A stretch of DNA of 62,827 bases, filler included. It is 14 parts of 14 records of this genome, joined end to end, with 100 filler letters (N's around TTAATTAATTAA, not from the genome) between each part and the next. Parts side by side here need not be neighbours in the genome. Positions count along the whole stretch, not along the records: positions 13,641 to 17,781 come from SRR15195285_6832; 13 more parts are not named here. The stretch is one strand, 5' to 3'. Under the pieces are notes generated by a model. It saw nothing but the letters and a program-made list of their open reading frames with translations, was not told the DNA's origin and did not search any database. Positions 12,464 to 47,982 of this stretch are shown piece by piece. A program made the translations under genes and the position numbers. Position 1 is the first letter of the stretch. Each line of letters opens with the position of its first letter.

Positions 12464-13292
12464 CTACCCCAGCCACCGCTGGAACTGCATCCGCACTCGA
12501 TCTGCAACAGCACCGACATTGTCTAATGCTGGGCGCACATCCAGGTGCATGCCAATGGCTGCGGTTTGGCCGTCCCCTGGTGCATTGTAGAAGTCAATGA
12601 CGTATCGCACCTGCTCCCCACACCTGCGCCAACCCGACGAGAACGTGTACGGTAAGCATGTCGGGTGGAGTGAGACAGGCGCGCGGGCAGCTGCGGGCGC
12701 ACCGGTCGACGGTCCAGTCATGCCGGTCGAAAGGCAGGGCGTAGCCAAGCCAGCTTTTAAGCCGCGCCCTGGGAGTGAGATCTTTCGGCCGCCCCTCGAA
12801 CTTCAGCAGCTTCGGCTGGCCGCACCTTGATTTGTGCATGTTCTCCCAGTCAAGCACCTCGGACCAGGCCCGTTCATTCACCGCGTTGTGGATCGCTACG
12901 ACCATGCTCATGTCCTGCTCACTCGGCTGGTAGCCCTTCCGCCGCATCGCGTTGAAGAACATCTGCGGCGATGGGTACTCCCAGAGCTGCTTCTCGTCGT
13001 CCTGGTGGTCCGGGTTGTAGTCGCTCTTCGGGATGGTCGATACTTGCCGCGCCGTGTCCAGTGGCATCTGCTGCATCGGCGCTGGCAGGTTGCGCTCACC
13101 GCCCGCCTTCATCATGTTCCCCAGGTCCACGCCCCCCGCAGCAGCCCCGCCGCCCCCACTGCGTACCGGGCACGCGCTCGCGGCCGCAGGCGGCGCCTCG
13201 CCGCCGCCGCCGCCGCCGCCCAGCCACGCTCCCCCGTGCTTCACAGGACAGCTGGATGGCGGAGCAGCATCTGACGCCTTGGCAGCCTCCAT
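12464..13292 (-). CDS. HCCS: Holocytochrome c synthase (cytochrome c heme lyase), one intron near the 3' end
   Basis: Two CPV heme motifs, WEYPSPQMFFNAMRRKG, IHNAVNERAW, PFDRHDWTVDRC, VRYVIDFY, LDVRPALD. Confidence 0.95.
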
Positions 13293-13640: not shown

Positions 13641-15346
13641 CCGAGCCCGAGCCCGAGCCCGAGTCCGAACCAGAGCAGCTGCAGCCGACAAGTCCAGAAG
13701 CAGGGAAGCAGAGGGAGTTGCAGCAAGCCATGGGTGACTGGTCAGAAAAAGTCACCTCGGACTGGGTGATCAATGCGCTGTCGGGCATTAGCACTGACGA
13801 ACAAAAAGCAGCTCTGAGGATAGTGATCGAGACCGAAGAGCTCGACGGCGCGGAGCTTGTAGGCATGACGCCGAAGCGCCTGCAACGTCTACTCAACGCT
13901 GCCGGTTTAATCGATCCGGCAGGCACCACGCAAGCTGTACTGTCGCTGCGAGACCAGGTGCTTGCAGATCAGCGTGGCAGTGACAGTACAGGCGGTGACA
14001 GTGCTAGCGTTGCAGCAGCTGTCGAGGGCGAGGTGCGTGTGGGGCCGATAGTATACCACGAGTCAGAGGATGCCCTCGGGAGTGGTAGGTTTGGATTTGT
14101 GTTTGCATGCAAGGTGGCCGAGACCGGCGAGAGGTACGCGGTGAAGCAGATACCAAAGCTTCGATTCGAAGCAGAAGGTGGCAAGAAGGAGATCGATGCG
14201 CTCCTGCATGCGCAGTCCACGGACGAGAGTGGCCACAAGAATGTCATCCGCTACCTACAGCATATCTCCAACAAATCTTTTGTCTATATTGTGATGGAGC
14301 TGTGTGAAGAGACATTGGAGCAGCGGTTGCAACGGCGTGGCCTGCACGATCCAGAGACACGACGGACTGTCTGTCTACAATTCTGCGAAGGCCTGAATTA
14401 TCTGCACACACTCCCGGAAGCCATCACACACCGTGACCTGAAGCCCTCCAATCTACTGTTCAAAGGGGATGTCCTCAAGATAGCTGATATGGGACAGAGC
14501 CGGATCCTGGCCATAGGAGAGACTGCAGTGCCGACTGGCAGCCAAGGCGGGACCATGGGTTGGATGTCGCCCGAGGAGATCGCGTGGGACAACGGTGGCA
14601 GTGCGTGTGGAGTGCCGTTTGAGGCGCATCTCTCGGGAGATATTCACACCGCTGGCTCAATTATCTTCTATATTTTGTCAGATGGGTGTCACTGCTTTGG
14701 CTCGGTCGGCTACAAACAGCAGGCGGCGATCAGTGAGGATAGGCCCGTCTTTGACGCTCTTGCTGACGATTCAATTGCAATCGATCTCGTGGCACGAATG
14801 GTACGACATGAGCCCTCCAAACGGCTGACAATTGCCCAGGTCAAGCTCCACCCAATGTTTTGGTCTTGTGGCGAGCGCATTGAGAAGATTCGAGGCTGGA
14901 AGACCTCCTGGCGCCGTGGCCGTGATCTAGACCGCCGGCTGTCCAATCACCCAGGCAGCGTGCGGCACATTCTTGCAGACCGAGGAGCAAGAGGTGGAGC
15001 GGAACCTGGATGGCTCTCAGCGTTGGATACCTCGGTCGTGGCGCGACTCACCGCCAGGGAAGATAGTCGCTACGACGGCCGCGATGTGCTCGATCTGATC
15101 CGCGCCATACGCAACGTCTTTGAACACTGGTTTGAGCACACAGCGGCTGCCAACTCGTCTACGGCGCACGTGCTCGCCGTGGAGGGTTTAACAGGCTGGG
15201 ATGACGCAGAGATGCGCCGCGGGCACGCATCAGCGGACGCTCAATCGATGCGGGCGGCCGCTGTATGTCGGTACTTTCTATCCGAGGCGAAGTTTAGCAA
15301 GTTGCTCCTCGTGTTTGCGTTCCCGAAGGCGTGGGACTTAGGCTAA
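13641..15346 (+). CDS. SAM-like domain, IRE1/RNase L-type Ser/Thr kinase and KEN (HEPN) ribonuclease; 5' truncated
   Basis: Kinase motifs LGSGRFGFVF, YAVK, HRDLKPSNLL, KIADMGQS, GTMGWMSPE, HPMFWS; KEN motif DLIRAIRNVFEHW; N-terminal DWSEKVTSDWV...EELDGAELVGMTPKRLQRL (SAM-like). Confidence 0.8.
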
Positions 15347-15647
15347 TCTAGCGAATGGGGTTGATTCAAGTAGGCTGATTTGATTAAACGAGGCGACTGA
15401 GCCCTCGCGTGTCATGTACCAGACCCCACTCAGCATAATTAGGACACCCTTCTCTCTCTCGCGCTGGACCTGCGCGGCGCGCTCTTGACATTGGGCATAA
15501 GGCCCTTATGCCCAGTGTCACATGGGCGTCGTGGCGAATTGGATATGTTGTGAGACGAGGCCACGAGGGATGATTTTCAAGGGGCACACAAGGGTGCCCT
15601 GAGCCTAACACTGTTGCTAGATCTATCATCGCATTGTGCTGCCCATT

Positions 15648-17600
15648 CTACCCCTGGGTGCGGGCCATCATGGCTGCTCCTACGAGGCTGTTGATGTTAT
15701 GCAGTGCCTGCCTCATGCCACCAGTACTCTCGTCTGCGATCTTCTTGCTGAACTTAGTCACCTTCATCACGTTGCTGCCGGCGAGCAGCGCACGAGGGGG
15801 CGCCACAGCAGCCATTACGGCATCCACCGCTTCGTTCGTGTCCAGCTCCACTAGTGCCCAGGATGTGTTCGCGTTCACGTTCTTGTCGATCCGGTGCCGA
15901 AGGACCACCGCCTTGACCGTGCCGAAGAGACCAAATATCTCCGTCAGGGAGGCCTCGTTTTCGTAAGTGCCGACGCCTTCTTCCGTCCCGTCCCAGCCGT
16001 CGACACCGATCCCGCGCACGTGGATGCGATGCAGTTCAGGCTCAGAGGGTGCGGGTTCCATTGGCTTCTCTGCTGGCGGTGTGTACCAGGGCAGCTCCGG
16101 GTCAACTGCAAGGCCGAGTTTATCTGCGGTCCTGATAACCACCCCTGCGCAATCGAGCATTCCGACCGCTTTGACCAATCGGTCGAAGCAGGCGTCGCAC
16201 AGCACCCAGAGTGGATGGCCGTCAGGAAGGCTTTCGAGCAGCCCAGCAAAGGGTGCAGCGATGCCGCAGTAGAACATGGATTGAGTCATTGCGTAGTCCT
16301 CAATGAGCATGTCGTGCGTGTACTCCTTCGCAGCCTCGCAGTTGGCGTGCAGCGTCTCGATGTACATCCGGGTGATGTCGAACAGATGATCCATGTCCGG
16401 ACTAGCCAGCATCGAGCCTGTGAGCATCTGGCACATCTCGACGCCTGGCGGAGCGGCAGAGTAGGTCTGCCAATCGATGAACTTGAGCGCGGTGGCCTCG
16501 CCGTTCTTCCCCTTGCGGAAGATGTTGTCAGCACGCAAGTCGCCGTGGATCAGCGTGAACGGGCGCGAATCGAGGACCTTGTGGTACTCATCGCAAATGG
16601 CCTTGCCGTGCTTTTTCCACAGCGCGATCATCTTCTTGGTTTCGTCGGTGGGGAACATGTCGACGTGACCGCCCTGCATGGGCAGGTTCGGGTTGCCCGC
16701 AACAGGGTTCAGCTTAGAGATCAAGGTATCAACCAATTGAGGTGCGTCTGGCACAGTGCGGCCCCAGACTTCAAACCAGACAGCGGCGACCTCTGGCTTG
16801 CCAGAGCAAATCACTGGATGACTTAGGATGTCTGACTGCCAGTACTTGGCATGGAACTTGCCAACATACTCTGCCATCAACATGCAGTCATTCCACTTCA
16901 TACCCGTGATCTGGTCACACGTCTCAAAGCCACTGACGTTCAGGTCTTCCATGCCTATGCAGAAATACTCCTTCGGTTTCTCCGGATCAATGAAGACATC
17001 AATCACGTCCGGGATATCTAGGACGGATGCAACCTCCCTGGAAGAACGAGACAGGACGCGGAGTCGAAAGCACGCAGGGGTCAGGCGGTTGACACGCGGC
17101 GGCGCGTCGCGCGAGCATTTTTACCGGCACAGAGAGTGAACGATTGCGCACCCGTGTAGATTGGTGTAGAAGAACGTCTCCTTTTCGTACATGTTCGCAT
17201 CCAGGGCGAGCTGCCGGTTGCCCTCGAGGTCCTTGGAGTATTTGAGGACGATGCTTTCCGGACCGCTCGAACCAGCTGCGTACTCGAGGCCCACGATCGC
17301 TGCATCGCCAGTCACTCCGGCCTCGAGCTTGACCTTGATCACCATCTTTGACACAGTGGCCCGCAGCAGCGCCGATAACCAGTCGACCTCGATATCCTCC
17401 AGCTTTTTCGGGTACTTGGAGATCAGGAACGCCTTCTCCTCCTCGGTGCGCTTTGGAGTCGACGACGTGGGCGGGACCCCCTCCTCCGTCCCGTCCTCCG
17501 CGCTCAGCCCATTGCCAACCACGATCTTCCCGTCGACCGCGACTGTCACGTTCGTGGTGCCGTCGGCGGCTGTGACCGTGGTGATCACGGTGGTGCTCAT
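15648..17600 (-). CDS. Ecdysteroid/choline kinase-like (EcKL, APH fold) phosphotransferase with a C-terminal RRM-like domain; one intron (~17038-17151)
   Basis: PESIVLK...MYEKETFFY, MEDL, TLIHGDLRADNIF, FIDWQT; C-terminal RIHVRGI...EASLTEIFGLFGTVKAVVLR...WALVEL. Confidence 0.8.
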
Positions 17601-17881
17601 CGTGCTCTCCTTCCCCTGCAGCTCGGAGCCTCCCGAACGCACCCCGCGGCGCGGCACGATCTGGCACGCGAGCGCGAGCTGAGGTGCCCAGGTAGACGTG
17701 AAACTTGACTGAGATGAGCGTGTGTGAGACTACCGGTAGCCAGACTCCCCACTCAGGCAGCTGCAGACAAAGTTGCACTGANNNNNNNNNNNNNNNNNNN
17801 NNNNNNNNNNNNNNNNNNNNNNNNNTTAATTAATTAANNNNNNNNNNNNNNNNNNNNNNNNNNNNNNNNNNNNNNNNNNNN

Positions 17882-26795: not shown

Positions 26796-26951
26796 ATGGG
26801 ATGGAGGGCGTGGTCAAGATGATGGTGCTGGTGGTGCTTGTCAGGTGAGCTGGCGGTGGTTGTTGCTATGGGCTGTGGGCGGTGATGGCGCGGCTTCTGT
26901 ACCGGTTGAAGGCGGCCTGACAGCGTGTGGTGGCGGAGGGCTGGCGGTGCG

Positions 26952-29900
26952 ATGGACACGGAGGAGCTGCAGATCTCTCCGGCGAAGAAGCGCAGCCCGC
27001 TGAAGCGCGGCGCGACCGTCAAGTTGACGCCGGAGCAGATCGATGAGCGGCGCAAGGAGGCGTGCGCAAAGCTGGTGGAAGCCGCGCGCTCGGGGAAATG
27101 TGGCGAGATGGAACGGCTGCTTGGGACGGCCGCGCTCAGCGCGGCCGAGCGCAAGGAGCGGCAGAAGCGCGGTGCGGTCGATGCGGATATCAACGAGCTG
27201 GTTGCGCCGAATGATTTTCGCACAGACTGGGGCCGGACGCCGCTCGTCGAGGCCGTGTTCCACAACCAGCCGGACGCGGTGCAGTTGCTGCTGGACAGCA
27301 AGGCGGACCCGAGCATGGCCGACGCCAGCTCCTGGACTCCGCTCATCGCGGCAGCCGAGCAGGGCCTGCTGCCGATTATGAAGAAGCTGCTGCGGGCGGG
27401 GGCTCAGCTCGACAGCACCTGGCTGGACGCGGTCGACGAGGACATCGGCTGCAGTGCGTTCCATTATGCTGCGGTCATGGGCCACCGCGACTGCACCGCA
27501 GCGCTGCGGAGAGCGGGGTGCAGCACAGAGATACAGAGCCGCGATGGGGTGGAGGGCCTGGAGCTGGCCAAAATAGTTTGTGCACGCGCTGGCAGACGGG
27601 GGCGGACCAACGTGCTGGCGCGGAAAACAAAGGAGGAGAAGGAGAGCAGTCTTGACCAAGTTGTGAAAGTGGATCGGGAGGTCTTGTACATGGATGAGGA
27701 GGGCAAGTGGCAGGTTGGCAAGAAGAAGGAACTTGGGTATGATGAGAACTTGCACGCCGCCGCGATTACGGGCGACCTGCCGATGCTGCAGCGGCTGCTA
27801 ATGGTGTCCGTCGAGAAGGGCATTGACATCAACGAATTCGACTCGCAAGGCCAGACCCCCTTGTATCTGGCGGTGTGCTCGGGTCAGCTCAAGATGGCGC
27901 AGATCCTCCTGATCAATCATGCAAATCCATACATCAAAGGCACCAACGGATCGGCGCCAATACACGGTGCTGCACGCCATGGCCAGACCAATTGCGTCGA
28001 GATGCTTCTCGAGCGCAGAGCGGACGTCAACGTGCGGGGTGTGCACGGCAGAACCCCACTTATTCTGGCCGCGTCAAGTGGCCATGTCGACACGGTGCGA
28101 GTGCTGCTGCAGCACGGCGGAGACCCGCATCAAGTTGACAATGACAGCCGAAGCGCCGTCGACTTGGCGGCAAATCTTCACATTATCCATCTGCTACGCC
28201 GAACGATTGAGCAGCGTTCGTCAAGACACGGCCGCTACGAAGTGGCAGAGCACAGTGGTCGGGCAGACGATACTTCTACCGAGCTCGGCAACTGTGCAGG
28301 TGTCTGTGAAGGCACGAAAGCGATTGATACAGTCACGGGCGAACACGTCGTAATCTTGCGCTTTGAGGACGCTGCTGCATGCGAACGGATGCGAACGGCC
28401 ATGAGAGCATTACATGGAACTTTTGCTGGTGGTTTTGGTGCGATCAATCACATGCCACCATCGTGGGTGCCGCGTTCCGAGGCTGGCGCGGATGAGCCCG
28501 TTCAGCAAGAGCTAACACTGCAGCTAAGCAGTACAGAGGAGGAGGATAACAACGACGACGACGATGGCGACGACGACGACGACAAACACGAACACGAGAG
28601 CAGCAACAATACGAAAGACGATCCTGTTCCAGAAGATGAGCAAAATCAGGAGCAGGAGCAGGAGCAGGAGGATACGTCAGTAATTGCTGGGTCGGCAAAG
28701 GGATGTGTGGCCGTGGTACAGGCGTGGAGCGTCACGTTGGGCGAGTATTTCTACAGTGCACACAACGCACTGCCGCTCGTGGAGACGCGCGCGTTGCTGC
28801 GTGCACTGCTCTATGCACTGTCAGCGCTACACGCTGCCTCGTTGGCACATGGCTCGGTCGGATTAGACACAGTCGCGCGATTCTGGGATGGTAGCTGGCG
28901 ACTCATCGACCTGCACCGGGTCAGACATCAAGGGATGACTTCCGATCCGGATTTGGTTTCACATGCTGAATCTGAGGCTGACGCACAAGCTGCGGCGGCT
29001 GATGAGCAAGAAAGCGGCGACGGTGGTGACAAAAAACGTCCGAACTTCAGCGCGCTACTTGCTCGAGAGCGCGAGCGAAATAATGGGGGGCCTGTCGTCC
29101 GACTCCGCCTACCCTCGATACCTCCCGAAGGCGTTCGACGTGCACGTGCTGAGGCGGACATATGGGCTGTCGGTGTGCTCGCCCTTGGGCTGCTGACGCG
29201 GAGTGGGCGCAGACAGTCACTTCCTTGTGGCCGAGCGGCCACACCCGATGCGTACTGGGAAGCACTGAATGAATGGGTGCGACCACAGCAGCACGCAGGC
29301 CGTGACCGAGTCGCTCTCAGCACAGATGCTGAAGAGCTGGTCGAGGGATTGTTATCGTATGACCCTGCAGGACGCCTGTCAGCGGACGAGGCTCTTAATC
29401 TACCATTTTTCAGACAGGCGCACACTGCGCCAACGGAGCACGACTACGATCGCATACAGCAGGCCGGCGGGGCGCCCGCTGTGCCGACCCAGTTGCCCGC
29501 GCGAGTCCCGAAGGAGTTTCAGCGGGTGCAGAGGCAGGTCGGTGACGGTGATAGCAGCCAGCGTGTGGAAGAGGAGCTGCAGGGCCCTGGCTTGGACAGT
29601 GTGAACAGCGTGGACGGTGCAGATGGTGCAAACGAAGAGGCCTTGGCAGAAGAACAGGCCTGGCGAGAGCAGCTCGAGAGCGTGCGTGTCCTTGTTGCCC
29701 AGCGTTCGCGAGCGAAGACCATCCGACGGAAGCGCAAGATACTCCTGCGCGATGACGCGGATAGCTTCGGAGAAATGCGCTTTGCCGGGGAGACAGACAG
29801 CGACGATGATAGCGGTGGCAAGTCTGACAACGCTATCCTAGGCATGGGGCTTCTTGGTGTGCAAGCAAAAGCGAAGCATATCAAGAAGACAACCCGACAG

Positions 29901-32105
29901 AGCGACTCTAGTAGCGAAGAAAGTTCCGATGAGAACGATGAACCGCTGCCTGAGTACTCAGACGACGACACCTCGGATGACGAGGACCAGGATGGTGAGG
30001 CTGTCGAGGAGATCGGCGTCGCCGGTCACGGTGGGCGCGACAATGCTGTGTCCGCTGCAGCGGCTCTCGCAGCTGCTGTGGACGGTGATGCTAACAGCAA
30101 TGGTGGCGACAACGGCGACAAACAAGGCAACGGCGACAAAGATAAGCAGACTAGAAATGGAACTGGGTGGTTTCGTAACCTGCTTCCAGGCAAACTGCCG
30201 TCAGCGTCTGCCGTTGCCATTCCAGGGATTAAATTTGGTAACGATAAGTTTGCCTACACTGACGAGGAGCTCGAGAATGAGAATGTGAAACACCTCTGGG
30301 TTGCGAAACAGAAGGTGGAGGATTACTACTCTGATTCTGACTCTGATACCGATAGTGAATTTGAGGTCGCTTTCAATGACCAGGCACTCAAGCAGGTGCT
30401 TGCTCGGAGGATGGAGCGAGACGCTGTCGCTCGGTATGCATCAATGGCAGGCTACAGCAGGGAAGAGATGCTGGTGTGGTTGCGCGCCAAGCAGGTGCGA
30501 TGGATAACATTGCTACCGGATGATGAGCGTGAGGCTTTGATTGATGAGCTACGACGTGGGGTCGATCGACGGTGGCAGTACAAGGAGAACAAGTACGGAG
30601 CACCGCTCTCACCTGTTACTCAACTTCACCGAACCGCTCTGAGGCTGGGGAAGCTCCATGCCATGTCTGAGAAGCTGCGGATTGCAACACCCCGGCTCTT
30701 TTGCGTGTTACCAAGCCGCACGGCTGCAAAGCTTGACTCCGTCGCTCCTCGCTGGCTTGACCCGAAGAAATGGAATAATGGATCCTTCGCACTGCATCCG
30801 ATGTGTGAGTGGGACGGTGGCCATTTCCTCCCGTCACGATACGCCTACCCGGTGACAGACCCTCAGCGAGTACTCCGTGATTGTGGAGCTATTCTCCATT
30901 ACAATATGGAGCTTGTGCAGGCAGCTCTAGAGGCGGTAGAGAACAGCCCGCTGGCTACATCCTCGAACTTCGTCATACCCTATGCAAAAATACGCAAAGA
31001 GGGCGAGGCATTTCGCAAAAGTCGACCATCAACTGAGTCGAGCAAGGACAAAGATGCAGGAGGTGGACGCGACGCAAGCAGCCCATCGTTACGAAGGCCG
31101 ATACGTGATGCTGATGAAGCGACACACACGTCGAACACGCACCCGTTCCTTTTCCGATTTATGTCGGCGGTGATTGAGAAAGCGAAGAAGCGGGCCCTAG
31201 CTGGCTCAAAAGCCTCCGCCGAGGCAGCACGGGCTGCTTCCAACTATGGCACCTCGCTTTGTCATCTAGAGCGATTCATTCTCGCATCCGATCCGATTGG
31301 CCAATTCGGTGAACTGTACCTCTGCGAACCGCCGACCGAGAAGCATCCGGACCGACCTGCAGCAGCTCCCCCGCACCGGTGTTGGTTGTGCCCTCATCAT
31401 GCGAAGGAACTCTCAAACGCAGGGGGTTCGGTCTCTCTTGGTCGAACCCCGCCCTGGACAGTTGGAGGTTTGCTCTACAGCCTGGCGAATCAACCCTATG
31501 TCGCCCCGACGCAGCCATTTGCACCTCCCGAAGTCATTGCAACGACGATGGACAGCACGGAGCCTCCTGGGCTCGGCTACAGCGACGATGGCCCTACAGG
31601 AATGTCCGATCGGGCGGCGGCCAAGAAGAAGCTGGATAAGCTGCCAGAGCCGAAGAAAGCTGCGCCGGAGCTGTTGCCAGCAGTGACTGCTGTGGCACTG
31701 GAGGTAACGAAGGTGGAGGAAGCGGTGGCGTTGCTGCGTGAAGACAAGCCCGGCCATGCTGTTGTAGTTGTTTACGTGTCGCCGCTCTCTGTGCAGCGCT
31801 CGACCGTGGGAGCTGCCTGCACGGCGAGAATCGAAAAGCGCTACCAACCGACGGCAGTGGTGGTGCTTCCGGACTTTCCACGAGATGCTAAAGGCCAGAT
31901 TGATATCAAAGGGCTACAGCCGCCCGCACCCACTGATTGGTTGCGCTCGGCGCGGCTGAAGCGGCAGCGAGAGAAGCAAGGCGCCGACGACGATGACGCA
32001 CCACCGGACGCAGCCACAGTGCTTAAAGGACTGGGTGACCCAAAGGCGTATGCCGAGAAGGAAGCGAAGCCGCCACCCAGTTCCTCTGCATGTGTGCTTC
32101 AGTGA
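26952..32105 (+). CDS. Ankyrin-repeat and pseudokinase multidomain protein with AMP-binding C-terminal-like subdomain and CaaX end
   Basis: Uninterrupted ORF of about 1,717 aa. Ankyrin repeats (GRTPLVEA, GQTPLYLA, GRTPLILA); kinase-like AHGSVGLDTV...WRLIDL...DIWAVGVL...LLSYDPAGRLSADEALNLPFF; YQPTAVVVLPDFPRDAKGQIDIKGL; ends CVLQ. Confidence 0.8.
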   Translation: MDTEELQISPAKKRSPLKRGATVKLTPEQIDERRKEACAKLVEAARSGKCGEMERLLGTAALSAAERKERQKRGAVDADINELVAPNDFRTDWGRTPLVEAVFHNQPDAVQLLLDSKADPSMADASSWTPLIAAAEQGLLPIMKKLLRAGAQLDSTWLDAVDEDIGCSAFHYAAVMGHRDCTAALRRAGCSTEIQSRDGVEGLELAKIVCARAGRRGRTNVLARKTKEEKESSLDQVVKVDREVLYMDEEGKWQVGKKKELGYDENLHAAAITGDLPMLQRLLMVSVEKGIDINEFDSQGQTPLYLAVCSGQLKMAQILLINHANPYIKGTNGSAPIHGAARHGQTNCVEMLLERRADVNVRGVHGRTPLILAASSGHVDTVRVLLQHGGDPHQVDNDSRSAVDLAANLHIIHLLRRTIEQRSSRHGRYEVAEHSGRADDTSTELGNCAGVCEGTKAIDTVTGEHVVILRFEDAAACERMRTAMRALHGTFAGGFGAINHMPPSWVPRSEAGADEPVQQELTLQLSSTEEEDNNDDDDGDDDDDKHEHESSNNTKDDPVPEDEQNQEQEQEQEDTSVIAGSAKGCVAVVQAWSVTLGEYFYSAHNALPLVETRALLRALLYALSALHAASLAHGSVGLDTVARFWDGSWRLIDLHRVRHQGMTSDPDLVSHAESEADAQAAAADEQESGDGGDKKRPNFSALLARERERNNGGPVVRLRLPSIPPEGVRRARAEADIWAVGVLALGLLTRSGRRQSLPCGRAATPDAYWEALNEWVRPQQHAGRDRVALSTDAEELVEGLLSYDPAGRLSADEALNLPFFRQAHTAPTEHDYDRIQQAGGAPAVPTQLPARVPKEFQRVQRQVGDGDSSQRVEEELQGPGLDSVNSVDGADGANEEALAEEQAWREQLESVRVLVAQRSRAKTIRRKRKILLRDDADSFGEMRFAGETDSDDDSGGKSDNAILGMGLLGVQAKAKHIKKTTRQSDSSSEESSDENDEPLPEYSDDDTSDDEDQDGEAVEEIGVAGHGGRDNAVSAAAALAAAVDGDANSNGGDNGDKQGNGDKDKQTRNGTGWFRNLLPGKLPSASAVAIPGIKFGNDKFAYTDEELENENVKHLWVAKQKVEDYYSDSDSDTDSEFEVAFNDQALKQVLARRMERDAVARYASMAGYSREEMLVWLRAKQVRWITLLPDDEREALIDELRRGVDRRWQYKENKYGAPLSPVTQLHRTALRLGKLHAMSEKLRIATPRLFCVLPSRTAAKLDSVAPRWLDPKKWNNGSFALHPMCEWDGGHFLPSRYAYPVTDPQRVLRDCGAILHYNMELVQAALEAVENSPLATSSNFVIPYAKIRKEGEAFRKSRPSTESSKDKDAGGGRDASSPSLRRPIRDADEATHTSNTHPFLFRFMSAVIEKAKKRALAGSKASAEAARAASNYGTSLCHLERFILASDPIGQFGELYLCEPPTEKHPDRPAAAPPHRCWLCPHHAKELSNAGGSVSLGRTPPWTVGGLLYSLANQPYVAPTQPFAPPEVIATTMDSTEPPGLGYSDDGPTGMSDRAAAKKKLDKLPEPKKAAPELLPAVTAVALEVTKVEEAVALLREDKPGHAVVVVYVSPLSVQRSTVGAACTARIEKRYQPTAVVVLPDFPRDAKGQIDIKGLQPPAPTDWLRSARLKRQREKQGADDDDAPPDAATVLKGLGDPKAYAEKEAKPPPSSSACVLQ

Positions 32106-46287: not shown

Positions 46288-47982
46288 ATGTCTGGGGCGC
46301 AGCTGCGCAGCGCGGCGCGAGTGGGCGACGCTCTGGAGGTCGCTCGACTGCTGGACGGGCAGTTCAAGGGGACGCAGACCTCGCGGCGGTTGGACAGGCT
46401 GGCCGTCTGTGTGCAGCGCCTGCTGCGGGAGCACGAGCAGAGGCATGCGGCGGAGCCTGAGGCTGTGCCGAAGTTCATGACGCTGGAGGTGCTGCTGGAG
46501 GAGTATCGTCGCGCCAACGACGGTGCGGTGCTGCGTCCGCTGGACTATGGATTCCGCGAGCTTGCAGCCCTGGTTGAGGCGCTGCCCAGCACGTGCTGTC
46601 AGCTGACGTACCCGGGAGACGGGGTAACGGCAATCATGCCCGCCGTGCAGGCGAACTCGGCGGCGTACAACATAGCGGGTGGGATTCCCGATGCGCGGCT
46701 GAGGCTGCCAGTCAATGCGAGTGACAGCAACGGACGTTCAGCTCTATGGTGGGCTGCAAAGGGGGGCCAAGAGGAGGTCGTGCAGCTGCTGCTGAGACGG
46801 AACGCTGCAGCCGAAGTGTGCGACCGCAGCACAGGCAACACTGCGCTGCTGGTGGCTGCGGCGGGCGGTCACGCGGGCGTGGTGCAGTTGCTGCTGAAAC
46901 ACGGTGCGGATCCCAACGCCGTCAACGCAAAGGGAAACACCGCGATCATGATCGCACGGTCACGGGAGATCGCGCAAGCTTTGATCGTGTCTGGAGGAGA
47001 TGCGACAATCAAAAACTACGTCGAGCAGTCTGATATGTCAGGTGGGCTGATGCGCGAGCCAAAGAAGTCCGGCGGCCCACCACGTGGGCATGCAGCCGCA
47101 CAGCGCAGCCGTATGGGAGCAACTGGGAGGAAGCTGGGCAGCGCAAAGATAGGAGCGTGCGAAATCCTGTCACCGTTTACGTGCGGGCCTCCGAACACTG
47201 AACGCGGCGTCCACTTCGGCAGCGATCGCAGTGAGATAGCAGTTTGGGGAACTGTTGCGTCCACACACGAACGCACTGCTGCTGATGTGCAGTGGTCACT
47301 TGGGCACAAAGATGTAGCGCGGTTCCTTGAGCATCACAAGACACCACAGCAGTCTGAGCAGCAGGCCGCGAGGCTGCTGGCAGCAGGGGACTCTCTTGGT
47401 GCAGCAGAAGCAGCAACAGTCGGGCTCGCTTCCATTGCATGCAGCAAACGTGCGCTGCTTTTAGACAGTGGCGATATGACGACAAAGATGAAGGCCGGCG
47501 CAGAGTATCGCCAGCTTGAGGCTACGCAGCAAACACTGAAAGATTTGCGAGAGCAGAGTCGCTCGACAGAGCTGCGAGGCGCATTGCGGCGCATGAAAAC
47601 CACCGATCTACTGAAGTTGAGCCCGACGACAGCGACTGCACTGGTCGAAGATCGACGTTGGATGCCAATGGGGAACCGGGGAACAAGTGAGCAGGTTGAG
47701 CAGCGACATATCGACTTGGCATTGGCGATCCCAGACGACATCGAAGGCGAGAAGGAGACTCTGGCCGCTCAGAAGAAATCGATGATCGAGACCTTGCTCG
47801 AGCGGCACCACGCAATGCTTGCCGCAAGAGTAGCAGCTGCAGGCCAGCGTGACGAGGCGGAGCCCGGTGCACTATTACACGTGAATCGAGCGACGCAGGA
47901 AATGAGTTCAACCGACTCAGGGCGAACGGATGTGACGCAGACCAAGAGCATGCGAGTTCGAGGAATGCCAGCTTGGAATTGA
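46288..47982 (+). CDS. Ankyrin-repeat protein with an inserted LOTUS/OST-HTH domain
   Basis: LRSAARVGDALEVARLL, then VQRLL...LEVLLEEYRRAN...PLDYGFRELAALVEALP (LOTUS-like), then VNASDSNGRSALWWAA, GNTALLVAA, GADPNAVNAKGNTA. Confidence 0.75.
   Translation: MSGAQLRSAARVGDALEVARLLDGQFKGTQTSRRLDRLAVCVQRLLREHEQRHAAEPEAVPKFMTLEVLLEEYRRANDGAVLRPLDYGFRELAALVEALPSTCCQLTYPGDGVTAIMPAVQANSAAYNIAGGIPDARLRLPVNASDSNGRSALWWAAKGGQEEVVQLLLRRNAAAEVCDRSTGNTALLVAAAGGHAGVVQLLLKHGADPNAVNAKGNTAIMIARSREIAQALIVSGGDATIKNYVEQSDMSGGLMREPKKSGGPPRGHAAAQRSRMGATGRKLGSAKIGACEILSPFTCGPPNTERGVHFGSDRSEIAVWGTVASTHERTAADVQWSLGHKDVARFLEHHKTPQQSEQQAARLLAAGDSLGAAEAATVGLASIACSKRALLLDSGDMTTKMKAGAEYRQLEATQQTLKDLREQSRSTELRGALRRMKTTDLLKLSPTTATALVEDRRWMPMGNRGTSEQVEQRHIDLALAIPDDIEGEKETLAAQKKSMIETLLERHHAMLAARVAAAGQRDEAEPGALLHVNRATQEMSSTDSGRTDVTQTKSMRVRGMPAWN

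What the first reader, a model, noticed from the sequence alone, without database searches (positions are those of the whole stretch)
13641..15346. SAM-kinase-KEN: a candidate cytosolic IRE1/RNase L-like ribonuclease with a different oligomerisation module
Seen: an intronless ORF with an intact-looking kinase (Gly loop, AVK, HRD, DMG) followed by a KEN domain with an R-x4-H motif (RNVFEH, 15110-15127). A SAM-like domain lies just upstream and there is no TM helix in the visible part. Known: kinase-KEN RNases are activated by dimer or oligomer formation, via the luminal domain and TM in IRE1 or 2-5A-bound ankyrins in RNase L, and SAM domains self-associate. Inference: this may be a third architecture, possibly an antiviral or cell-death RNase in a protist. 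The upstream sensor is lost at the contig break.
Basis: partly seen in the sequence, partly recalled or inferred. Interest (0 to 1): 0.75.

Follow-up and report, generated by a model that had tools for sequence, protein, structure and literature searches.

The report
Truncated ankyrin-SAM-kinase-KEN ribonuclease gene
This is the intact back end of a marine protist gene that joins a SAM domain to an IRE1-type kinase and RNA-cutting domain; its full-length relatives also carry ankyrin repeats, so the layout echoes the vertebrate antiviral enzyme RNase L but seems to have been built independently.

Summary
Window 13643-15346 (+) is one open frame of 567 codons. It encodes a SAM-fold domain, a protein kinase with every catalytic motif, and a complete KEN RNase with Tyr477, Arg490, Asn491 and His495 (RNVFEH at 15110-15127, as reported). 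It has no membrane helix.

The window is 14 short contigs joined by artificial linkers, so the DNA left of 13641 is unrelated. The gene is cut at its 5' end inside a Glu-Pro repeat. Contigs from a DNA run and an RNA-library run continue the frame upstream.

All three long relatives (1237-1659 aa, 41-55% identical) and a fourth, N-truncated one (925 aa) read: ankyrin repeats (one also has ubiquitin-like domains), predicted helical stretch, basic stretch, Glu-Pro linker, SAM, kinase, KEN. The lost "sensor" is therefore most likely ankyrin repeats. SAM is added to ankyrins rather than replacing them.

On a kinase-KEN tree the family is a fully supported clade beside other ankyrin-kinase-KEN proteins and apart from canonical IRE1. 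Its KEN is nearer IRE1 than RNase L by sequence.

The likely mechanism is inferred, not shown: a cytosolic RNase switched on by induced self-association. I file it as a new variant of a known kind. This scan found the same family before on another genome (e1-7185690).

The parts
13643..15346 (+). Open reading frame of 567 codons plus the stop. It is the 3' part of a larger gene and is open at the contig's 5' end.
   Evidence: Translation. Relatives align over the whole length and end at the same place. No joints or indels appear in environmental contigs. 21 of 33 differences are synonymous.
13643..13675 (+). Glu-Pro acidic repeat (EPEPEPESEPE, a GAGCCC repeat). It is the tail of the family's linker, and the contig breaks inside it.
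   Evidence: Sequence. The same Glu-Pro linker precedes the SAM in P0007, P0008, P0014, P0124, P0267, P0268 and P0269. The depth spike at 13641-13709 shows a low-complexity repeat.
13730..13987 (+). Divergent SAM domain, residues about 30-115. It is a five-helix bundle with a long last helix.
   Evidence: AlphaFold2 model at pLDDT 85.9. VIA-align Z 9.9-7.9 for the 20 best chains, all SAM/PNT entries or SAM-containing proteins, at rmsd about 2-2.5 A for most over 68-84 residues. The Foldseek top rows are SAM domains. Family profile: Neurabin SAM at E 0.0016. Pfam SAM_PNT in 6 of 12 and SAM_1 in 4 of 12 members, below threshold.
13988..14062 (+). SAM-kinase linker (low confidence at residues 115-125) and an N-lobe extension with two short strands.
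   Evidence: pLDDT and secondary structure of the whole-protein model.
14063..14860 (+). Protein kinase domain, residues 141-406, with all catalytic motifs.
   Evidence: Pfam Pkinase at E 3.1e-39. Motifs G146xGxxG151, K168, E183, HRD 263-265, N270 and DMG 282-284 are conserved in every family row that covers them.
14861..15343 (+). KEN (kinase-extension nuclease, HEPN-type) RNase domain, residues 407-567.
   Evidence: Pfam Ribonuc_2-5A at 29.8 bits. The whole model matches IRE1 kinase-RNase over 441-476 columns with TM (target) 0.66-0.80. KEN profile: yeast Ire1 at E 1.2e-10, human IRE1 at 4e-8, RNase L at 0.07.
15071..15127 (+). KEN catalytic stretch: Y477 (15071-15073), then R490, N491 and H495 (RNVFEH, 15110-15127).
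   Evidence: Aligned to the catalytic Y...RN..HH stretch of human and yeast IRE1. R, N and H are invariant in 9 of 9 family KEN rows. Tyr is present in 8 of 9 and Phe in one.

Best explanation
The ORF is the 3' 1.7 kb of a larger gene of an uncultured marine protist. It encodes the SAM, active-kinase and KEN-RNase end of a protein family.

Full-length members of that family read: N-terminal ankyrin repeats (one also has ubiquitin-like domains), a stretch that looks like coiled coil, a Lys/Arg-rich stretch, a Glu-Pro acidic linker, SAM, kinase, KEN. The protein is soluble, with no signal peptide, luminal domain or membrane helix. It is a relative of IRE1 rather than IRE1 itself or RNase L.

Shown here: the domain composition, intact kinase and RNase catalytic residues, family membership, purifying selection, and continuation of the frame upstream of the contig end.

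Inferred mechanism. The protein is a latent cytosolic endoribonuclease.
1. A signal read by the ankyrin region brings molecules together, helped by the SAM domain and the coiled coil.
2. The kinase domains trans-autophosphorylate and pair back to back, as in IRE1.
3. This pairs the KEN domains into an active RNase.
4. The RNase cuts RNA without metal and leaves 2',3'-cyclic phosphate ends.

The biological role, whether stress, antiviral or cell-death RNA decay, is a guess from the analogy with RNase L and IRE1-dependent decay.
For: Domains and residues.
- Pkinase at E 3.1e-39 and Ribonuc_2-5A above the Pfam cut-off.
- The best solved relatives are IRE1 kinase-RNase chains: the 16 best rows, at E 4.7e-29 to 2.6e-21.
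- Whole-protein model at pLDDT 83.1. All listed Foldseek rows, to rank 49, are IRE1.
- Kinase motifs and KEN residues Y/R/N/H are intact and conserved.
- SAM fold.

Architecture of relatives.
- P0267: 1659 aa, 55% identity, 93% of the query covered.
- P0268: 1327 aa. P0269: 1237 aa. P0007: 925 aa, N-truncated.
- All four have ankyrin repeats, then basic and Glu-Pro stretches, then SAM, kinase and KEN.

The SAM is family-specific. My SAM profile hits 19 of 307 stored proteins: 18 family members and P0227 weakly. It hits none of the 9 other ankyrin-kinase-KEN proteins.

Tree of 76 kinase-KEN rows.
- The family is one clade with SH-aLRT 100.
- It lies in a 20-row group (SH-aLRT 90) with two other ankyrin-kinase-KEN clades.
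- It is apart from the 56-row group that holds all 11 rows with luminal PQQ/beta-propeller hits.

No membrane helix.

The gene goes on 5'. One contig of a DNA run and one of an RNA-library run overhang 13644 by 65 and 50 letters. They share an identical 30-letter consensus, which reads in frame as ten sense codons with no stop.

Selection and presence.
- 21 of 33 differences are synonymous, p 1.5e-6.
- 13 of 19 listed runs hold at least half of the sampled words.
- Contigs of two metatranscriptome runs, both from one study, cover about 13644-14925 with gaps.

A small homotypic-interaction domain placed directly before kinase-KEN recurs elsewhere: PYRIN-kinase-KEN (P0244) and CARD-kinase-KEN (P0252).

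The dimer-driven activation of IRE1 and RNase L is established knowledge, restated in PMC4536996 (abstract seen in the listing) and PMC10400998.
Against: - No experiment and no binding result support SAM self-association or RNase activity here.
- The window's own 5' part is missing, so ankyrin repeats are inferred from relatives only.
- Two relatives start with Met close to the SAM and may be genuine short forms: P0124 (596 aa) and P0149 (811 aa).
- The Pfam KEN match covers only profile positions 35-83 of 127.
- The KEN alone is weak against solved chains: IRE1 at E 1.4.
- The window's SAM gets only SAM_PNT at E 0.22.
- The catalytic Tyr is Phe in P0002, P0006 and P0125.
- RNA-library contigs do not cover 14952-15434. 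An RNA library can also hold DNA, so transcription is only hinted at.
- The grouping with other ankyrin-kinase-KEN clades rests on a quick tree without bootstraps. The tree has no RNase L row and only a midpoint root.
Confidence: 0.6

Rival explanations
1. Stand-alone SAM-kinase-KEN. The protein starts at ATG 13730 (MGDWSEK...) or a little upstream and has no ankyrin sensor. This is the literal architecture the first reader proposed.
For: An in-frame ATG lies just before the SAM. P0149 begins with Met 6 residues before its SAM. P0124 begins with Met 55 residues before its Glu-Pro linker. Several short gene calls start at the equivalent Met (P0005, P0148).
Against: The frame is open for 29 codons before that ATG. 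It encodes the family's Glu-Pro linker, which is internal in P0007, P0267, P0268 and P0269. Overhanging contigs add ten more sense codons. The Met is a conserved position of the SAM's first helix, nearly invariant in 12 rows. The short calls lie on contigs of 1.2-2.2 kb.
Confidence: 0.12
2. The SAM domain is not a self-association module. It may bind RNA, as Smaug/Vts1-type SAM domains do, and select substrates for the RNase. Or it may dock on the SAM of another protein to form a mixed signalling complex.
For: SAM domains are known to do all three things (established knowledge, recalled). Earlier notes of this scan report SAM tails on kinase-TIR proteins of the same genome (e1-7365415 and e1-7365129; not tested here). 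Several of the best structural matches are hetero-SAM pairs: CNK/HYP, Scm/Sfmbt and Ph/Scm.
Against: No RNA-binding SAM entry is recognisable by title among the 50 rows listed by the wide structural search. This is weak evidence, because the library holds one representative per cluster. My family SAM profile finds no other copy in this window, and among 307 stored proteins it finds only family members and P0227.
Confidence: 0.15
3. It is a fragment of the organism's canonical IRE1, the ER-membrane unfolded-protein sensor, with the luminal part and membrane helix lost at the contig break.
For: The best solved relatives are IRE1. The kinase is active-type, as in IRE1.
Against: No IRE1 has a SAM domain between the membrane and the kinase, as far as I recall. 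Full-length relatives have ankyrin repeats and no PQQ/beta-propeller hit or membrane helix. The family is a separate clade (SH-aLRT 100) outside the group holding all 11 rows with luminal-domain hits.
Confidence: 0.02
4. The KEN domain is a structural dimerisation tail without RNase activity, and the protein acts only as a signalling kinase.
For: The KEN is divergent: the Pfam match is partial. Tyr is replaced by Phe in three relatives.
Against: R490, N491 and H495 are invariant in 9 of 9 family KEN rows. They are present in the 12 intact rows of the wider alignment. Non-synonymous differences in environmental contigs avoid them.
Confidence: 0.05

Closest known systems
IRE1 (yeast Ire1p, human ERN1/IRE1alpha; PDB 2rio, 3fbv, 3p23, 6w3c and others)
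   Same: Active-type kinase fused to a KEN RNase with the Y/R/N/H catalytic set. IRE1 is the best sequence match (E 4.7e-29; KEN profile E 1.2e-10) and the best structural match. Activation by induced oligomerisation is the likely shared logic.
   Different: No signal peptide, luminal sensor or membrane helix. SAM sits where IRE1 has its membrane helix and linker, and relatives carry ankyrin repeats. The family is a separate clade on the kinase-KEN tree.
RNase L (jawed vertebrates; PDB 4oav, 4oau, 4o1o)
   Same: Soluble ankyrin...kinase-fold...KEN order in full-length relatives, with no membrane anchor.
   Different: The kinase keeps all catalytic motifs, whereas RNase L is a pseudokinase (recalled). 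The ankyrin repeats are separated from the kinase by a helical stretch, a charged linker and SAM, several hundred residues in all. The KEN profile scores RNase L only at E 0.07. The RNase L lineage is reported as confined to jawed vertebrates (PMC10400998). No 2-5A synthetase link has been tested.
Ankyrin-kinase-KEN proteins outside the RNase L lineage. They are noted in PMC10400998 as independent gains of ANK repeats. Here they are the unnamed environmental proteins P0151, P0157, P0189, P0207, P0211, P0217, P0220, P0250 and P0260.
   Same: Ankyrin repeats upstream of an IRE1-type kinase-KEN. Seven of the eight that are in the tree lie in the same 20-row group as this family.
   Different: None of the nine has the SAM domain. 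The SAM family is a clade of its own on a long stem of 0.93.
SAM-regulated kinases: ZAKalpha, ASK3, and Ste11 with Ste50
   Same: A SAM domain on a protein kinase that controls its assembly state. The ZAK and ASK3 SAM domains are among the structural matches (Z 9.8 and 7.2).
   Different: In those kinases the SAM lies C-terminal to the kinase or on a partner, and there is no nuclease domain. That their SAMs regulate assembly is recalled, not tested here.
Earlier finding of this scan, e1-7185690 (another genome): ankyrin-SAM-IRE1-type kinase-KEN of a marine protist
   Same: Same architecture and same reading.
   Different: That copy is reported as intact and expressed, whereas this one is cut at its 5' end. 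I could not compare the sequences: the look-up by sequence found no look-alike stretch.

Membership tests
IRE1 | N-terminal signal peptide and luminal sensor domain (PQQ/beta-propeller-type Pfam hits) | tested here: not met
   Not testable on the window's own gene, because its 5' end is missing. In the long relatives P0267, P0268 and P0269 there is no such hit; ankyrin repeats are found instead. By contrast, 11 of 84 other kinase-KEN proteins scanned have PQQ_2 or beta-propeller hits.
IRE1 | Single membrane helix between sensor and kinase | tested here: not met
   The highest 19-residue hydropathy mean is 1.17 in P0001. The peaks of 1.6-1.7 in P0267 and P0007 lie inside ankyrin-repeat helices and carry charged residues; one of P0268's peaks is ankyrin-region, the other (1.63) lies in its SAM.
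IRE1 | Catalytically competent kinase motifs | tested here: met
   GxGxxG, AVK, the alphaC Glu, HRDLKPxN, D[MF]G and PE are all present and conserved in the family.
IRE1 | C-terminal KEN RNase with catalytic Tyr, Arg, Asn and His | tested here: met
   Y477, R490, N491 and H495 align to the IRE1 catalytic stretch. The KEN fold is covered by the IRE1 structural matches.
IRE1 | Groups with canonical IRE1 on a kinase-KEN tree | tested here: not met
   Separate clade with SH-aLRT 100, outside the 56-row group that holds all 11 rows with luminal-domain hits (quick tree, midpoint root).
RNase L | Ankyrin-repeat domain directly N-terminal to the kinase fold that binds 2-5A | tested here: inconclusive
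   Relatives have ankyrin repeats, but these are separated from the kinase by a helical stretch, a charged linker and SAM. The window's own 5' end is missing. Ligand binding cannot be tested with these tools.
RNase L | Pseudokinase (catalytically inactive kinase fold; recalled) | tested here: not met
   All catalytic kinase motifs are intact.
RNase L | Member of the monophyletic RNase L lineage of jawed vertebrates (PMC10400998) | not tested
   I had no RNase L sequence to put in the tree. As indirect evidence, the family KEN profile scores RNase L at E 0.07 against IRE1 at 1.2e-10.
SAM domain | Five-helix bundle of about 70 residues | tested here: met
   Model at pLDDT 85.9 with helices at 14-25, 31-44, 48-52, 56-65 and 71-91 of the 95-residue piece. 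Z 9.9 at rmsd 2.1 A over 75 of 75 residues of the Hyphen/Aveugle SAM. The 20 best chains are all SAM or PNT entries or SAM-containing proteins.
SAM domain | Sequence match to the Pfam SAM families at the curated score | tested here: inconclusive
   Window copy: SAM_PNT at E 0.22, 12 bits against a cut-off of 24. Among 12 family SAM pieces, SAM_PNT matches 6 (best 1.9e-5), SAM_1 matches 4 (best 4e-5) and SAM_2 matches 1, at E up to 1. Family profile against solved chains: Neurabin SAM at 0.0016 and liprin-alpha at 0.007, mixed with GroEL rows.
SAM domain | Homotypic or heterotypic SAM-SAM association | not testable with these tools
   Needs solution measurements such as SEC-MALS, AUC or EM.
Ankyrin-SAM-kinase-KEN family of marine protists (environmental relatives; e1-7185690) | Family-type SAM directly before the kinase, Glu-Pro linker before the SAM, and placement inside the family clade | tested here: met
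   SAM profile at 87.6 bits on P0001. Glu-Pro linker at 13643-13675. Clade with SH-aLRT 100, and subclade with P0002, P0267 and P0003 at SH-aLRT 98.
Ankyrin-SAM-kinase-KEN family of marine protists (environmental relatives; e1-7185690) | N-terminal ankyrin repeats in the same polypeptide | not testable with these tools
   The contig ends at 13641, and only ten further codons can be read from overhanging contigs. The metagenome scan gave no longer copy: one close locus, L001, covering residues 275-564. No whole genome is held.

The most novel reading that the evidence does not exclude
Marine protists have a soluble RNA-decay switch of their own making. Ankyrin repeats sense a ligand or protein signal of infection or stress. 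SAM polymerisation then builds a filament-like assembly that forces kinase-KEN units together and releases a broad RNase, giving an abortive-infection or cell-death response. On this reading it would be a convergent counterpart of OAS-RNase L. It would also be one case of a wider rule, since PYRIN- and CARD-kinase-KEN proteins exist too: polymerising adaptor domains gate KEN nucleases.
Probability: 0.2. Interest if true: 0.75.

Novelty: new variant of a known kind. Interest (0 to 1): 0.5.

Why it matters
Kinase-KEN ribonucleases are known in depth from only two systems: IRE1 (ER stress) and RNase L (interferon-induced antiviral decay). Both are switched on by forced dimerisation.

This is a conserved protist family under purifying selection. 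It keeps an active kinase, adds a SAM domain at the position where the activating module sits, and carries ankyrin repeats upstream. That shows the same nuclease engine has been wired to another input. It offers a soluble, compact model for asking how oligomerisation licenses KEN activity. It also bears on whether RNase L-like defence is older or more widespread than jawed vertebrates, or arises repeatedly.

This particular copy adds little beyond the family, because its 5' end is missing and the scan has already met the family elsewhere.

Tried and rejected
- Complex prediction with two copies of the 95-residue SAM piece gave no verdict (ipSAE 0.01 and 0.00). The alignment was not used and the controls were not run. 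It says nothing either way.
- No whole genome is held for this window. So I could not count paralogues, look for a canonical IRE1, or look for OAS/cGAS-like genes in the same genome.
- The metagenome scan with P0001 gave 80 loci. Only one is a close relative: L001, 62% identity over residues 275-564, itself truncated. The rest are ordinary kinases. No 5' extension came from it.
- The KEN piece alone against solved chains was not significant (IRE1 at E 1.4). The family profile was needed.
- Foldseek with the SAM model gave no match at E <= 0.001, with a best of 0.15. The SAM assignment rests on the ranking, the TM-scores and the wide VIA-align search.
- tblastn of P0001 on the window found no second kinase-KEN gene. 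The ankyrin hits at 27081-28217 and 46678-47049 lie inside other contigs and other genes, and they are not the missing 5' end.
- RNA-library contigs leave 14952-15434 uncovered. I draw nothing from that.
- Literature searches found no paper that describes a SAM domain on a kinase-KEN protein. The library is limited, and I did not open the supplements of PMC10400998, whose domain-architecture figures and tables might show one.
- Look-ups of earlier findings by place (near) and by sequence returned nothing.
Full report
**What is in the window.**
The window is not one stretch of genome. It holds 14 contigs of about 3.4 to 6.5 kb joined by N44-TTAATTAATTAA-N44 linkers. The finding lies on the contig 13641-17781, so nothing left of 13641 is its neighbour. 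On the + strand one frame is open from 13643 to the stop at 15344-15346, which is 567 codons (P0001). The frame is already open at the contig's first codon. It begins with EPEPEPESEPE, encoded by a GAGCCC repeat, and the first in-frame ATG is at 13730.

**Check of the observation.**
- Kinase: Pfam gives Pkinase at residues 141-406 (E 3.1e-39).
- KEN: Pfam gives Ribonuc_2-5A at 453-503 (E 7.6e-7, 29.8 bits against a cut-off of 23.3; profile positions 35-83 of 127).
- Solved relatives: the 16 best rows are all IRE1 kinase-RNase chains (E 4.7e-29 to 2.6e-21), aligned over residues 142-502.
- Kinase motifs: G146xGxxG151, K168, E183, H263-R264-D265, N270 and D282-M-G284 are present. They are conserved in every family row that covers them.
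- KEN catalytic set: Y477, R490, N491 and H495.
- Membrane helix: the highest 19-residue hydropathy mean is 1.17, so none is visible.

**The KEN domain is complete.**
- The AlphaFold2 model of the whole ORF was built on 23 aligned relatives. It has mean pLDDT 83.1 and pTM 0.73. Low confidence is confined to the first 16 residues, the SAM-kinase linker (115-125), the activation loop (284-302) and 449-453.
- All Foldseek rows listed, to rank 49, are IRE1 kinase-RNase structures. E is from 2.5e-17, there are 441-476 aligned columns, and TM normalised to the target is 0.66-0.80. The match therefore runs through the nuclease domain.
- In a KEN alignment of nine family rows, R, N and H are invariant. 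The Tyr is Tyr in eight rows and Phe in one. Phe also occurs in P0002 and P0006.
- A profile of that alignment finds yeast Ire1 (E 1.2e-10), human and mouse IRE1 (4e-8 to 1.2e-7) and then RNase L (0.07). Apart from the shared kinase tail, nothing else of note appears.
- The KEN piece alone was not significant.

**The N-terminal domain is a SAM domain.**
- A 95-residue piece (window 13706-13990), modelled with 15 relatives, gives pLDDT 85.9. It shows five helices in the SAM pattern, preceded by a short N-terminal helix.
- An all-against-representatives structural search returns SAM or PNT domains throughout its top ranks. The 20 chains with Z >= 7.9 are all SAM/PNT entries or proteins that contain one. 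For ZAK, liprin, TIR-1 and SARM1, the SAM identity of the aligned range is my recall. The best is Z 9.9 at rmsd 2.1 A over 75 of 75 residues.
- Foldseek ranks Scm, Ph, ZAK, L3MBTL3 and Shank SAM domains first. Probability reaches 1.00 and TM (target) 0.74-0.78, but E-values are only 0.15 and above.
- Sequence evidence is weak but points the same way. The window copy gets SAM_PNT at E 0.22. Among 12 family SAM pieces, SAM_PNT matches 6 (best 1.9e-5) and SAM_1 matches 4 (best 4e-5).
- The family profile's best solved hit is the Neurabin SAM (E 0.0016), with GroEL rows mixed in lower down.

**What was lost at the contig break.**
- Relatives are all environmental. The nearest is P0002 (59% identity). 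A scan of 1.84 billion representatives gives 45 proteins at E <= 1e-30.
- A search among longer proteins found three relatives: P0267 (1659 aa, 55% identity, 93% of the query covered), P0268 (1327 aa) and P0269 (1237 aa).
- These three, and P0007 (925 aa, N-truncated), share one order: ankyrin repeats, a long helical region that looks like coiled coil by eye, a Lys/Arg-rich stretch, a Glu-Pro repeat, the SAM, the kinase and the KEN. P0267 also has three ubiquitin-like domains among its ankyrin repeats.
- The window ORF begins inside that Glu-Pro repeat.
- When contigs of public runs are laid on the stretch, one contig of a DNA run and one of an RNA-library run overhang position 13644 by 65 and 50 letters. 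They share the same 30-letter consensus. In the ORF's frame that consensus reads as ten sense codons with no stop.
- The gene therefore continues 5'. By the nearest full-length relative, it most likely continues into ankyrin repeats. This last step is inference.
- P0124 (596 aa) and P0149 (811 aa) start with Met near the SAM and may be real short forms.

**Place among kinase-KEN proteins.**
- I scanned 84 of the best kinase-KEN representatives against Pfam. Of these:
  - 11 have luminal-type PQQ or beta-propeller hits (canonical IRE1);
  - 7 have C-terminal CCCH fingers;
  - 9 have ankyrin repeats;
  - one has an N-terminal PYRIN domain (P0244);
  - one has a CARD (P0252).
These are 18 family members and P0227 weakly (E 3.5e-5). 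None of the nine other ankyrin-kinase-KEN proteins is hit.
- The tree has 76 kinase-KEN rows. P0122 was left out as a near copy of P0007. It used IQ-TREE quick search, LG+G4, SH-aLRT only and a midpoint root.
- The SAM family is one clade (SH-aLRT 100, stem 0.93) with two subclades (98 each). The window's protein sits with P0002, P0267 and P0003.
- The clade lies in a 20-row group (SH-aLRT 90) with two other ankyrin-kinase-KEN clades. It is apart from the 56-row group that holds all 11 luminal-domain rows.
- The PYRIN and CARD proteins are nested inside that IRE1-type group.
- No RNase L row was available for the tree.

**Is it a live gene?**
- Of the 19 runs listed, 13 (seawater or marine metagenome runs) hold at least half of the sampled words. 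The 19 rows come from 17 studies.
- Two metatranscriptome runs, both from one study, hold 0.38 of the words. Their contigs cover about 13644-14925 with gaps. DNA can be present in such libraries, so this is only a hint of transcription.
- No joints or indels were seen, which fits an intron-free stretch.
- Of the 33 single-letter differences inside the ORF, 21 are synonymous against 24% expected at random (p 1.5e-6). None touches a catalytic residue.

**Mechanism.**
- Shown: the domain set, the intact catalytic residues of both enzymes, and the absence of a membrane anchor.
- Established for IRE1 and RNase L: forced self-association gives a back-to-back kinase pair, which gives a KEN pair, which gives RNase activity.
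- Inferred here: the ankyrin region reads a signal. The SAM lies about 25 residues before the kinase, where IRE1 has its membrane helix and linker. Together with the helical region, it brings molecules together. The active kinase trans-phosphorylates the Ser/Thr-rich activation loop, and the KEN pair cuts RNA.
- The recurrence of small homotypic-interaction domains (PYRIN, CARD) directly before kinase-KEN in other proteins fits this logic.
- A test of SAM self-association by complex prediction gave no verdict and is not used.
- Rivals: a stand-alone short form; a SAM that binds RNA or a partner's SAM; a canonical IRE1 fragment; a dead KEN.

**What is known.**
- The HEPN survey lists KEN fused to kinase with ankyrin repeats, CCCH, ubiquitin and BRCT. 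It does not list SAM (PMC3710099; passages read).
- The study of RNase L origins confines the RNase L lineage to jawed vertebrates. It notes that several other KEN proteins gained ankyrin repeats independently (PMC10400998; passages and all of section 6 read; supplements not opened).
- Five searches found no paper that describes SAM on a kinase-KEN protein.
- This scan has already reported the same architecture on another genome (e1-7185690). It has also reported a different KEN architecture on another piece of this genome (e1-7366280).
- Those notes call this genome 'probably a picozoan'. I did not test the taxon.

**Verdict.**
This is a real, selected gene fragment of an ankyrin-SAM-kinase-KEN family, and a new variant of the kinase-KEN RNase kind. 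Its interpretation is partly right, because SAM is added to ankyrins rather than replacing them. Interest is moderate: the family is worth an experiment, but this copy is truncated and the scan has seen the family before.

Noticed in passing
window 1-62827: The window is a chain of 14 contigs joined by 13 identical linkers (N44-TTAATTAATTAA-N44). Adjacency across any linker means nothing.
   Followed up: yes
window 15435-15572: A repeated element lies just 3' of the stop codon. Summed contig depth jumps to 170-480 in two DNA runs and to 78-127 in one RNA-library run, against about 5-10 around it. The stretch holds a near-palindrome with 28-nt arms at 15475-15502 and 15504-15531, 79% complementary. 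It may be a dispersed hairpin element or a 3'-end signal.
   Followed up: partly
window 15648-17006 (-) and 17121-17657 (-): The convergent neighbour on the same contig is a 452-codon ORF with EcKL/DUF1679/APH-type small-molecule kinase hits (E 1.7e-14). By eye its C-terminal part looks like an RNA-recognition motif; I did not test this. The 178-codon ORF upstream on the same strand has no Pfam hit and may be its 5' exon.
   Followed up: partly
window 26925-32105 (+): On another contig there is a 1726-codon ORF with many ankyrin repeats, a partial kinase hit at residues 736-829, and about 900 residues with no Pfam hit. It resembles the ankyrin-kinase-TIR proteins that earlier notes report for this genome (e1-7366356). 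I did not check that.
   Followed up: partly
P0244 (543 aa) and P0252 (499 aa), unnamed representatives: These are PYRIN-kinase-KEN and CARD-kinase-KEN proteins (PYRIN at E 2.9e-19, CARD at E 2.6e-13). They are sister to each other and nested inside the IRE1-type part of the tree. So they are soluble kinase-KEN proteins headed by death-fold domains. I know of no description of them and did not search for one.
   Followed up: no
P0267 (1659 aa) and P0151 (1992 aa): P0267, the nearest full-length relative, has three ubiquitin-like domains interleaved with its ankyrin blocks. P0151 is an ankyrin protein with two kinase domains before a KEN.
   Followed up: no
P0006 and P0268: Two proteins carry the same source label (eukprot COSAG01). 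One falls in each subclade of the family by similarity: P0006 is 66% identical to the query, and P0268 is 41% identical and lies in subclade B. One assembly may therefore hold at least two paralogues. P0006 itself was not in the tree.
   Followed up: partly
window 12594-13292 (-), neighbouring contig: This 232-codon ORF has a Gly/Ala-rich N-terminus. By eye it looks like a holocytochrome c synthase. That name is recalled and comes from no call.
   Followed up: no
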